A DNA stretch of 64,000 bases from Escherichia coli (GTDB taxonomy: Bacteria; Pseudomonadota; Gammaproteobacteria; Enterobacterales; Enterobacteriaceae). Below the pieces are notes generated by a model that saw nothing but the letters and a program-made list of their open reading frames with translations, did not search any database and was not told where the DNA came from. This document shows, piece after piece, positions 55,937 through 57,463 of this stretch (the stretch's first letter is position 1; each line of letters starts with the position of its first letter). The stretch lies in assembly GCF_013122565.1 (NCBI RefSeq), contig NZ_CP053258.1; one strand, 5' to 3'. The position numbers and the translations under genes were made by a program.

Positions 55937-56674
55937 ATGCTGCAAAATATTCGAATTGTGCTGGTGGAGACGTCACACACCGGCAATATGGGTTCTGTTG
56001 CCCGTGCCATGAAAACAATGGGATTAACCAATCTGTGGCTGGTTAATCCACTGGTGAAACCCGACTCCCAGGCGATTGCCCTGGCAGCAGGGGCCAGCGA
56101 TGTGATTGGTAATGCTCACATCGTCGATACGCTCGACGAAGCGTTAGCCGGTTGTAGCCTGGTGGTGGGCACCAGCGCACGCTCCCGCACGCTGCCGTGG
56201 CCGATGCTCGACCCGCGCGAATGCGGTCTGAAAAGCGTCGCTGAAGCGGCAAATACCCCGGTGGCGCTGGTTTTTGGTCGCGAGCGTGTTGGCTTGACCA
56301 ATGAAGAGTTGCAGAAATGCCATTATCATGTCGCGATTGCCGCGAACCCGGAATACAGCTCGCTGAACCTGGCGATGGCGGTGCAGGTTATTGCCTATGA
56401 AGTGCGTATGGCCTGGCTGGCAACTCAGGAAAACGGCGAGCAGGTCGAGCATGAAGAGACGCCATATCCGCTGGTCGATGATCTGGAGCGTTTTTATGGT
56501 CATCTCGAACAAACGCTGCTGGCAACCGGTTTTATTCGTGAAAACCATCCGGGGCAGGTGATGAATAAACTGCGACGTCTGTTTACCCGTGCGCGCCCGG
56601 AAAGCCAGGAATTGAATATCCTGCGCGGGATTCTGGCTTCTATAGAGCAGCAGAATAAAGGTAATAAGGCCTGA
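55937..56674 (+). CDS. trmJ: tRNA (cytidine/uridine-2'-O)-methyltransferase TrmJ
   Basis: 245-aa [33 protein letters not shown]..., SpoU/TrmH-class methyltransferase; divergent from suhB. Confidence 0.93.
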
Positions 56675-56700
56675 GGGCTAAGCCAGATAAATGCACGGAC

Positions 56701-56748
56701 GGTCCCCTCGCCCCTTCGGGGAGAGGGTTAGGGTGAGGGGAAGAGGCC
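56701..56748. repeat. GC-rich imperfect-palindrome intergenic element (possibly a small repeat family member)
   Basis: GGTCCCCTCGCCCCTTCGGGGAGAGGGTTAGGGTGAGGGGAAGAGGCC: stem CCCTCGCCCC/GGGGAGAGGG around a TTC loop plus flanking GGG/CCC tracts; resembles what I remember of enterobacterial Box C-type elements but the family assignment is unverified. Confidence 0.35.
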
Positions 56749-56841
56749 AGCGCTAATGCGAATAATTGCCCTCAACCCGCCCATGGTCTGGAAGGACAAC
56801 AGGTACAAACGCCACGATAAAAAAATGGCACTGAAGGTTAA

Positions 56842-56891
56842 ATACCCGACTAAATCAGTCAAGTAAATAGTTGACCAATTTACTCGGGAAT
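56842..56891 (+). promoter_or_regulatory. Two adjacent type-1 IscR binding sites in the iscR promoter (autoregulation)
   Basis: ATACCCGACTAAATCAGTCAAGTAAAT and ATAGTTGACCAATTTACTCGGGAAT, followed by TTGACC at 56899-56904, about 80-130 bp upstream of iscR. Confidence 0.6.
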
Positions 56892-56974
56892 GTCAGACTT
56901 GACCCTGCTATGCAATACCCCCACTTTTACAATAAAAAACCCCGGGCAGGGGCGAGTTTGAGGTGAAGTAAGAC

Positions 56975-57463
56975 ATGAGACTGACATCTAAAGGGCGCTA
57001 TGCCGTGACCGCAATGCTTGACGTTGCGCTCAACTCTGAAGCGGGCCCGGTACCGTTGGCTGATATTTCCGAACGTCAGGGAATTTCCCTTTCTTATCTG
57101 GAACAACTGTTTTCCCGTCTGCGTAAAAATGGTCTGGTTTCCAGCGTACGTGGACCAGGCGGTGGTTATCTGTTAGGCAAAGATGCCAGCAGCATCGCCG
57201 TTGGCGAAGTGATTAGCGCCGTTGACGAATCTGTAGATGCCACCCGTTGTCAGGGTAAAGGCGGCTGCCAGGGCGGCGATAAATGCCTGACCCACGCGCT
57301 GTGGCGTGATTTGAGCGACCGTCTCACCGGTTTTCTCAACAACATTACTTTAGGCGAACTGGTTAATAACCAGGAAGTGCTGGATGTGTCTGGTCGTCAG
57401 CATACTCACGACGCACCACGCACACGCACACAAGACGCGATCGACGTTAAGTTACGCGCTTAA
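56975..57463 (+). CDS. iscR: Fe-S cluster-responsive transcriptional regulator IscR
   Basis: 162-aa [49 protein letters not shown]..., Rrf2 family with three cluster-ligand cysteines. Confidence 0.97.

What the first reader, a model, noticed from the sequence alone, without database searches (positions are those of the whole stretch)
56701..56748. GC-rich imperfect palindrome downstream of trmJ
A roughly 48-bp element with more than 70 percent G+C and repeated CCCCT/AGGGG-type runs forming an imperfect hairpin lies between trmJ and the iscR promoter. It is unlike the REP/BIME palindromes elsewhere in this window. It could be a member of another dispersed repeat family, a trmJ terminator (it lacks a clear U-tract), or a structural insulator for the isc promoter.
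Basis: seen in the sequence. Interest (0 to 1): 0.3.

Follow-up and report, generated by a model that had tools for sequence, protein, structure and literature searches.

The report
Known BoxC repeat downstream of trmJ
The GC-rich palindrome between trmJ and iscR is one copy of BoxC, an already described dispersed repeat of E. coli (also called PIT, TMECO or HPG1), in a spacer that carries different repeats in different strains; nothing shows that it controls either gene.

Summary
Window 56701-56748 is 70.8% G+C and holds an imperfect palindrome between trmJ and iscR. It matches exactly, at 56705-56739, the published consensus of the BoxC / PIT / TMECO / HPG1 repeat: one C-rich block and two G-rich blocks (subtype 'A mm', TTA second loop). 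E. coli genomes hold a median of 19 BLAST matches to it. Holder et al. 2015 already list the copy at this locus for O157:H7 Sakai.

It is a composite: an intact type A copy, a 28-nt spacer, and a decayed, truncated inverted type B copy. All of this lies in a 123-bp cassette (56672-56794) that also supplies the trmJ stop codon.

The cassette occurs in 1431 of 5426 complete E. coli genomes. The other strains, K-12 included, carry one to three 91-bp REP-pair units between the same junctions. Salmonella enterica has no repeat there, and Klebsiella has a BoxC-like copy.

There is no U-tract, and published tests found no promoter or terminator activity for this family. The conserved iscR control region starts downstream of the cassette. 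The dispersed-repeat reading is supported. The terminator and insulator readings are not.

Verdict: already known, low interest.

The parts
56672..56794 (+). Strain-variable 123-bp cassette holding the whole BoxC composite. Other E. coli strains carry 1-3 REP-pair (BIME) units between the same junctions.
   Evidence: Alignment of five alleles. Both of its unique ends are single-copy and occur in only 1431 of 5426 genomes, always at trmJ-iscR.
56672..56674 (+). trmJ stop codon TGA, supplied by the cassette. TrmJ is 245 aa here; REP alleles read GAA TAA and give 246 aa.
56690..56703 (+). Weakly conserved 5' extension of the repeat (GCACGGACGGT before the first block).
   Evidence: Alignment with K-12 copies. 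The similarity is modest.
56704..56714 (+). Block 1, C-rich arm CCCCTCGCCCC.
   Evidence: Consensus match. Complementary at 8 of 9 positions to block 2 and at 8 of 9 to block 3.
56715..56717 (+). Loop 1, TTC.
56718..56727 (+). Block 2, G-rich GGGGAGAGGG. It is the Watson-Crick partner of block 1 with one G/A mismatch, the 'mm' of subtype A mm.
56728..56730 (+). Loop 2, TTA, which defines type A (HPG1).
56731..56740 (+). Block 3, GGGTGAGGGG. It mirrors block 2 at 8 of 9 positions and is the proposed third strand of the purine-motif triplex. Blocks 2 and 3 together form a four-G-tract G-quadruplex motif.
56741..56768 (+). 28-nt spacer, homologous to the spacer between type A and inverted type B copies in K-12 BoxC pairs.
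   Evidence: Spacer plus B half aligns at 43-44 of 64 columns, score 22 against shuffles -11 +/- 4.7 (maximum 6 in 500).
56769..56794 (-). Decayed, truncated inverted type B copy. The + strand reads CCCTCAACCC G CCCATGGTC TGGAAG. The middle block differs from the intact K-12 type B middle blocks (CCCTCTCCC/CCCTCACCC) at 5 of 9 positions, and the 5' arm is missing at the cassette junction.
   Evidence: Pairing of block 3 with 56769-56778.
56795..56974 (+). Not part of the element. This iscR upstream region is invariant among the aligned E. coli alleles, and from about 56826 it is conserved in Klebsiella and Salmonella.

Best explanation
The element is one copy of BoxC, the known enterobacterial dispersed repeat also published as the PIT element, TMECO type A mm and HPG1. 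It consists of a C-rich 9-11-mer followed by two G-rich 9-10-mers. Here it is the intact half of a composite, with a spacer and a decayed inverted type B partner, inside a 123-bp cassette directly after trmJ. The trmJ-iscR spacer tolerates extragenic repeats and has been occupied in different ways: BoxC in about 26% of E. coli, REP/BIME units in the rest and in other Escherichia lineages, a BoxC-like copy in Klebsiella, and nothing in Salmonella enterica. The most likely reading is a dispensable, neutral or selfish repeat copy with no role specific to trmJ or iscR. Inferred from the published in vitro work, not shown here: as single-stranded DNA it can fold into a hairpin, an intrastrand triplex or a G-quadruplex, and this may stall polymerases and promote local indels and replacements. 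That would fit the decayed partner and the several alleles at this locus. How the family spreads is unknown.
For: Exact consensus match at 56705-56739 with 0.00 expected by chance. The 36-mer has the same block pattern as 13 MG1655 'A mm' copies. Matches occur in 5425 of 5426 E. coli genomes, median 19 places. The identical 36-mer is listed for Sakai in Holder et al. Suppl. Table S8, and in Sakai it lies between iscR and trmJ. Composite architecture is shared with the K-12 pairs fepB-entC, gcvP-ygfF and alx-sstT. The locus is polymorphic, with allele lengths 441 (BoxC) against 413, 504 and 595 (REP units); the BoxC allele is in 1431 of 5426 genomes. S. enterica has an empty 159-bp spacer, and Klebsiella has a BoxC-like triad at the same spacer. 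There is no T-run and no terminator call. No Rfam family matches. Published results: in vitro triplex by CD and NMR, not detected in vivo by DMS footprinting, no promoter or terminator activity, and more strain-to-strain variability around these elements. A G4/hairpin switch was shown in vitro.
Against: Nothing here tests function directly. The + strand places the element in the likely trmJ 3' UTR, where the RNA hairpin (-30.6 kcal/mol) could affect mRNA decay as REPs do. The allele is fixed in large lineages (O157:H7; the B1-like O26 and O111 strains), so a lineage-specific role is not excluded. The link between structure and instability is a correlation in the literature, and in vivo triplex formation was not detected.
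Confidence: 0.8

Rival explanations
1. The element acts in RNA as a 3'-end stabiliser or decay barrier for trmJ mRNA. The stable hairpin in the 3' UTR would block 3'-5' exonucleases, which is the role shown for some REP sequences. The REP and BoxC alleles would then be functionally interchangeable.
For: The element lies 27-30 nt after the trmJ stop codon on the sense strand. The RNA fold is -30.6 kcal/mol. Most lineages examined carry some palindromic repeat in this position: REP in E. coli, other Escherichia, S. salamae and K. aerogenes; BoxC-like in Klebsiella.
Against: S. enterica subsp. enterica has no repeat in the spacer, so a structured element is not required. The folding z-score is only -1.4. 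No transcript data are available. The family shows no orientation bias relative to genes, which argues against a strand-specific RNA role in general.
Confidence: 0.12
2. It is a Rho-independent terminator of trmJ.
For: A G+C-rich stem-loop lies shortly after the stop codon.
Against: No U-tract: the stem is followed by AAGAGGCCAGCG. The terminator scan does not report it. Published assays found no terminator activity for PIT/BoxC elements.
Confidence: 0.03
3. It is a DNA-structure switch (G-quadruplex, hairpin or triplex) that insulates or regulates the iscR promoter, in line with the Gene Ontology association with iron-sulfur cluster binding that Kaplan et al. 2016 predicted for the HPG1 motif.
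For: Blocks 2 and 3 form a four-G-tract motif, and a G4/hairpin switch was seen in vitro. The GOMo prediction associates the motif with Fe-S cluster binding. The copy lies upstream of iscR.
Against: The element is absent at this locus in 74% of E. coli including K-12, and in S. enterica. The conserved iscR upstream region starts downstream of the cassette. Duplex DNA is preferred when the complementary strand is present, and no structure was found in vivo. The GO association is a motif-scan prediction made on K-12, which has no copy here.
Confidence: 0.04
4. It is a non-autonomous mobile element built like a REPIN (an inverted doublet forming a long hairpin). It would have been inserted, or exchanged with the REP pair, by a hairpin-directed single-strand DNA mechanism that shares target preference with REPs.
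For: The A + spacer + inverted B doublet recurs in E. coli, in Ca. Contendobacter and in a Methylomirabilota genome. An intact K-12 doublet folds into one long hairpin, z = -3.1. BoxC and REP cassettes occupy the same junctions. Copy number is very high in some genomes, e.g. Mitsuaria.
Against: No target-site duplication is visible at the junctions. The unique left 31 nt and the right half of the cassette have no other copy in any E. coli genome, so no donor was found. No associated transposase is known or was looked for here. Holder et al. found no association with transposons, phages or plasmids.
Confidence: 0.12

Closest known systems
BoxC (Bergler et al. 1992; Bachellier et al. 1999 survey), re-described as PIT elements (Hoyne et al. 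2000; Hoyne & Maher 2002) and as TMECO type A mm (Holder et al. 2015, PMC4666352)
   Same: Exact match to CCCTCNCCC-N3-6-GGGNGAGGG-N3-GGGNGAGGG[GTC-]. TTA second loop and one mismatched triplet. Intergenic, multi-copy, at a strain-variable locus, and paired with an inverted type B copy. The Sakai copy at this locus is in the published table.
   Different: Nothing in the intact half beyond a loop-1 variant (TTC; K-12 copies have TTT, TCT, TCC and others). The type B partner here is decayed and truncated. K-12, where most work was done, has REPs at this locus instead.
HPG1 'G-quadruplex-hairpin-duplex switch' motif (Kaplan et al. 2016, PMC5100583)
   Same: Contains the exact HPG1 core GGGAGAGGGTTAGGGTGAGGG with the C-rich 5' flank.
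   Different: This is the same sequence family under another structural interpretation. The proposed regulatory role is a prediction only.
REP / BIME elements
   Same: Extragenic palindromic repeats found after stop codons. They occupy exactly this site in the alternative alleles.
   Different: No sequence similarity to the REP consensus. No GTAG-type motif. No known cognate RAYT transposase and no known IHF or gyrase binding.
Intrinsic (Rho-independent) terminators
   Same: A G+C-rich stem-loop shortly after a stop codon.
   Different: No U-tract, and the family tested negative for terminator activity in the literature.

Membership tests
BoxC / PIT / TMECO | Match to the consensus CCCTCNCCC-N3-6-GGGNGAGGG-N3-GGGNGAGGG[GTC-] | tested here: met
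   One exact match in the window at 56705-56739, followed by G at 56740; 0.00 expected by chance. Consensus taken.
BoxC / PIT / TMECO | Subtype A mm: TTA second loop and one mismatched triplet between blocks 1 and 2 | tested here: met
   Loop 2 is TTA at 56728-56730. Block 1 matches the reverse complement of block 2 at 8 of 9 positions, the mismatch being G/A. Same pattern as the 13 MG1655 A mm copies.
BoxC / PIT / TMECO | Dispersed in many copies in the genome | tested here: met
   blastn with 71 nt matches 5425 of 5426 E. coli genomes, median 19 places each. The literature reports 23 copies in MG1655 and 823 in 56 strains.
BoxC / PIT / TMECO | Intergenic location | tested here: met
   Lies between the trmJ stop codon (56672-56674) and the iscR start (56975).
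BoxC / PIT / TMECO | Frequent pairing of a type A copy with an inverted type B copy across a spacer of about 26-28 nt | tested here: met
   The spacer and inverted B half align to K-12 pairs at 43-44 of 64 columns, score 22 against shuffles -11 +/- 4.7. The B half is degenerate and truncated, so it no longer matches the consensus.
BoxC / PIT / TMECO | Strain-to-strain variability of the locus | tested here: met
   Four allele lengths were found. The BoxC allele is in 1431 of 5426 genomes.
BoxC / PIT / TMECO | Forms an intrastrand triplex (or G4 or hairpin) as single-stranded DNA in vitro | not testable with these tools
   Oligonucleotides differing only in loop 1 were characterised by CD and NMR. 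ViennaRNA models hairpins only.
Intrinsic terminator | G+C-rich stem-loop | tested here: met
Intrinsic terminator | U/T-tract immediately 3' of the stem | tested here: not met
   The stem is followed by AAGAGGCCAGCG, and the terminator scan does not report the site.
REP / BIME | REP consensus sequence | tested here: not met
   The REP pattern hits the window near 4.9 kb and 35.1 kb, not here. REPs fill this site only in the other alleles.
REPIN (REP doublet mobilised by a RAYT) | Inverted doublet able to form one long hairpin | tested here: inconclusive
   The intact K-12 doublet does (-28.7 kcal/mol, z = -3.1). The window copy no longer does; only block 3 pairs with the remnant.
REPIN (REP doublet mobilised by a RAYT) | Cognate transposase gene flanked by the repeats | not tested
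   No search for such a gene was made. None is reported in the papers read.
Any Rfam RNA family | Covariance-model match | tested here: not met
   Only two chance-level hits, E = 0.46 and 2.9, far below the gathering scores.

The most novel reading that the evidence does not exclude
The trmJ-iscR spacer is a recurrent landing site where BoxC doublets and REP pairs replace one another at the same two junctions, the left one removing the last trmJ codon. BoxC doublets would then be REPIN-like mobile elements sharing a hairpin-directed, single-strand DNA insertion or exchange mechanism with REPs, driven by an enzyme not yet identified. The same three-block motif, at high copy number in distant phyla (Burkholderiales, Methylomirabilota, Ca. 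Contendobacter), would reflect the spread of that system.
Probability: 0.12. Interest if true: 0.45.

Novelty: already known. Interest (0 to 1): 0.12.

Why it matters
It matters little on its own. The element belongs to a repeat family described in 1992 and studied again in 2000, 2002, 2015 and 2016, and the copy at this locus is already tabulated for O157:H7 Sakai. The practical points are for annotation. It should not be annotated as a terminator or as an iscR regulatory site. Data on the trmJ 3' end or the isc upstream region from K-12, which has BIME here, cannot be transferred to strains with the BoxC allele (O157:H7, O26, O111 and Shigella sonnei-like). The side result is modestly useful for the open question of how BoxC spreads and decays: a clean exchange of BoxC and REP cassettes at fixed junctions, an empty site in Salmonella, and a BoxC-like occupant in Klebsiella.

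Tried and rejected
- Rfam scan of 56500-57100 at E <= 10 gave only two chance-level hits.
- The promoter and terminator scan found nothing at the element.
- Folding z-scores are weak, -1.4 to -2.1, because G+C-rich shuffles fold almost as well. Folding energy was therefore not used as evidence.
- The single genome-contig scan with the full consensus stopped at its 120-stretch limit, filled mostly by Mitsuaria chitosanitabida. It gave no E. coli copies and no usable taxonomic census. K-12 copies were fetched by coordinates instead.
- A donor locus for the cassette was sought with its unique left 35 nt and right 57 nt. Both are single-copy and occur only at trmJ-iscR, so no donor exists in E. 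coli.
- No target-site duplication is evident at the junctions.
- The idea that a structured element is obligatory after trmJ was rejected because S. enterica has an empty spacer.
- Mitsuaria pairs were tested as a MITE with BoxC-like terminal repeats. Their interiors vary in length and content, with partial hairpin units and tandem repeats, so no simple MITE emerged, and this was not pursued.
- The 36-aa (+) and 44-aa (-) ORFs overlapping the cassette were dismissed because they span strain-variable sequence.
- The figure '4544 genomes with at least 80% of the 71-nt query' was not used as the allele frequency. It exceeds the 1431 genomes that hold the cassette's unique flanks, so it must include other family copies or joined pieces.

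Full report
**Context.** The finding lies in the suhB(-) / trmJ(+) / iscR(+) / iscS(+) region. trmJ occupies 55937-56674, with its stop codon TGA at 56672-56674. iscR starts at 56975. The 48 nt at 56701-56748 read GGTCCCCTCGCCCCTTCGGGGAGAGGGTTAGGGTGAGGGGAAGAGGCC. They are 70.8% G+C, against 52.5% for the window and 50.3% for the 300-bp spacer.

- An 11-nt inverted repeat (56703-56713 with 56731-56741) is 91% complementary.
- The C-rich arm can also pair with the middle G-rich block.
- The hairpin is not unusual by energy alone: z-scores are -1.4 to -2.1 against composition-matched shuffles.
- The motif itself exceeds chance. A 21-nt core, allowing 3 mismatches, and the full published consensus each occur once in the window, with 0.00 expected.
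- REP-type palindromes occur elsewhere in the window, near 4.9 kb and 35.1 kb, and are unrelated to this element.

**What it is.** A 71-nt query around the element matches 5425 of 5426 complete E. coli genomes, with a median of 19 places per genome. It is therefore a dispersed repeat.

The literature search led to Holder et al. 2015 (PMC4666352). They give the consensus 5'-CCCTCNCCC-N3-6-GGGNGAGGG-N3-GGGNGAGGG[GTC-]-3' for 'TMECO', the element first called BoxC (Bergler 1992) and later PIT (Hoyne et al. 2000). The window matches this consensus exactly at 56705-56739, followed by G at 56740. The parts are:
- block 1, CCCCTCGCCCC, 56704-56714
- loop 1, TTC
- block 2, GGGGAGAGGG, 56718-56727
- loop 2, TTA
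- block 3, GGGTGAGGGG, 56731-56740

Block 1 is complementary to block 2 at 8 of 9 positions, with a G/A mismatch. Block 3 mirrors block 2 at 8 of 9 positions. This is the published 'type A mm' subtype, the commonest in MG1655 with 13 of 23 copies.

The same core, GGGAGAGGGTTAGGGTGAGGG, is the 'HPG1' G-quadruplex/hairpin switch motif of Kaplan et al. 2016 (PMC5100583).

Holder's Supplementary Table S8 lists the identical 36-mer in O157:H7 Sakai at 3,383,056-3,383,021. In the current Sakai record the copy lies between iscR and trmJ, 135 bp from that coordinate. I attribute the offset to the record version. The neighbouring table entries are more than 400 kb away. This very copy has therefore already been catalogued.

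**The element is larger than reported.** I aligned the window against the K-12 'pairs', a type A copy followed by an inverted type B copy. These lie at fepB-entC, gcvP-ygfF and alx-sstT.
- 56741-56768 is homologous to the inter-copy spacer of those pairs.
- 56769-56794 (CCCTCAACCC G CCCATGGTC TGGAAG) is a decayed inverted type B copy. Its first block has one change, its middle block has five of nine, loop TGGAA is kept, and its 5' arm is missing.
- The spacer plus B half aligns at 43-44 of 64 columns, score 22 against -11 +/- 4.7 for shuffles, with a maximum of 6 in 500.
- An intact K-12 doublet folds into one long hairpin (z = -3.1). In the window copy only block 3 pairs with the remnant.

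**The locus is polymorphic.** A 441-bp query spanning the spacer is fully covered in only 1432 genomes. In the others the middle is replaced, giving allele lengths of 413, 504 or 595 bp.

Alignment of representatives shows a cassette between fixed junctions...AAGGCC | cassette | GACAACAGGTACAAACGCC...
- In the window the cassette is 123 bp (56672-56794) and carries the BoxC composite.
- In other strains it carries one, two or three 91-bp REP-pair units. K-12 and BL21 have three.
- The left junction lies at the end of trmJ. The BoxC allele reads GCC TGA and gives a 245-aa TrmJ. The REP alleles read GCC GAA TAA and give 246 aa.
- The unique left 35 nt and right 57 nt of the BoxC cassette are single-copy. 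They occur in 1431 of 5426 genomes (26%), always at this locus. No donor locus exists in E. coli.
- There are two sub-alleles. The window type is in about 1110 genomes, including O26:H11 and O111:H8. The O157:H7 type is in about 320 genomes and differs at four positions, none in the triad.

**Outgroups.**
- Divergent Escherichia lineages (trmJ 93-96% identical) all carry the one-REP-pair allele.
- Salmonella enterica subsp. enterica has a 159-bp spacer with no repeat. S. salamae has a single REP.
- Klebsiella has a REP-like half followed by a type-B-like BoxC triad, CCCTCTCTCC TTGT GGGAGAGGG CCG GGGCGAGGG. This is decayed in K. oxytoca, and K. aerogenes has REPs.

Parsimony within Escherichia suggests that the BoxC allele is derived, but an older origin is not excluded. 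The empty Salmonella site shows that no structured element is required downstream of trmJ. From about 56826 the sequence is conserved across all these genera, and from 56795 it is invariant among the aligned E. coli alleles. From my own knowledge, this conserved stretch contains the IscR type 1 binding sites and the iscR promoter. The element lies outside the conserved iscR control region.

**How it most likely works.** What is shown here is family membership, the composite anatomy, the polymorphism and the absence of a U-tract.

From the literature:
- Single-stranded oligonucleotides of this sequence form a stable intrastrand purine-motif triplex by CD and NMR, or a G-quadruplex/hairpin depending on the cation.
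- Duplex DNA wins when the complementary strand is present.
- In vivo DMS footprinting did not detect the triplex.
- PIT elements block DNA polymerase in vitro.
- PIT elements showed no promoter or terminator activity and no effect on RNA polymerase.
- Loci with these elements vary more between strains than control intergenic regions do.

My inference is that this copy is a dispensable, neutral or selfish repeat sitting in a repeat-tolerant spacer. Its transient non-B structures in single-stranded DNA plausibly drive the local decay and replacement seen here.

The rivals are unsupported:
- An RNA 3'-end stabiliser is possible but not required, given the Salmonella empty site.
- An intrinsic terminator lacks a U-tract, and the family tested negative.
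- An iscR insulator or switch is unlikely, because the element is absent from 74% of strains and lies outside the conserved region.

[quoted passage not shown] It was derived by motif scanning in K-12, which has no copy here.

**Wider distribution.** It showed the same three blocks at high copy number in Mitsuaria chitosanitabida (Burkholderiales), in a Methylomirabilota genome and in Ca. Contendobacter. The loops and flanks are specific to each lineage, and the copies often occur as inverted pairs. This agrees with Holder's report of more than 260 genomes and adds nothing decisive.

**Verdict.** The terminator and insulator readings are not supported. The family and this copy are already known. 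The BoxC/REP cassette exchange at fixed junctions is a tidy example of the published 'variable TMECO locus' phenomenon rather than a new kind of feature.

Noticed in passing
L001 (K-12 AB1157) 419-869; L002; L003; window junctions 56671/56672 and 56794/56795: The alternative alleles of the trmJ-iscR spacer hold 1, 2 or 3 tandem 91-bp REP-pair (BIME) units. The first REP starts about 9 nt after the trmJ stop codon. From memory (Liang, Rudd & Deutscher 2015), that is close enough to reduce expression of the upstream gene through ribosome stalling. In the BoxC allele the hairpin starts about 30 nt after the stop codon.
   Followed up: partly
L141/L142 about 1975-2012 (Klebsiella); L143/L144 (K. 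oxytoca); L145 (K. aerogenes); L146 (S. enterica); L147/L148 (S. salamae): The same spacer holds a type-B-like BoxC triad preceded by a REP-like half in Klebsiella, and a decayed version in K. oxytoca. K. aerogenes and S. salamae have REPs, and S. enterica subsp. enterica has no repeat (159-bp spacer). The site is a repeat hot spot across Enterobacteriaceae.
   Followed up: partly
L015-L121 (Mitsuaria chitosanitabida contigs): More than 100 exact consensus matches with a lineage-specific form, CT-CCCTCTCCC-GCTTGC-GGGAGAGGG-CNG-GGGTGAGGG-TCTTCGGGCT. Of 30 close pairs, 27 are in '-+' orientation, the opposite of the E. coli '+-' pairs. Their interiors are 30-272 bp and contain partial hairpin units and tandem repeats.
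   Followed up: partly
L023, L024 (Ca. Contendobacter MAG): These copies are almost identical to E. coli type A, including the TTA loop and an inverted partner after a short spacer, although the host is distantly related. This points to horizontal spread or strong convergence.
   Followed up: no
window 56939-56953: A conserved hairpin, CCCCGGGCAGGGG, lies in the iscR leader just upstream of the ribosome-binding site. On the - strand it reads as a terminator-like GCCCCTGCCCGGGGT followed by TTTTTATTGT. It is conserved in Klebsiella and Salmonella.
   Followed up: no
window 55937-56671 (TrmJ) and 56560-57000: One source labels the exact TrmJ sequence Shigella sonnei, and UniRef groups it from 71 taxa. 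The best complete E. coli genome is 99.3% identical over 441 bp. The window may come from a Shigella or B1-like lineage that is not in the E. coli collection.
   Followed up: no
L130 (MG1655 3,781,028-3,781,156): In K-12 a BoxC A/B pair lies between lldD and trmL, so it is next to another SpoU-family tRNA 2'-O-methyltransferase gene. This is probably a coincidence.
   Followed up: no
window 56756-56866 (+) and 56728-56862 (-): Small ORFs of 36 and 44 aa overlap the cassette and the iscR upstream region. They span strain-variable sequence and are most likely spurious.
   Followed up: partly
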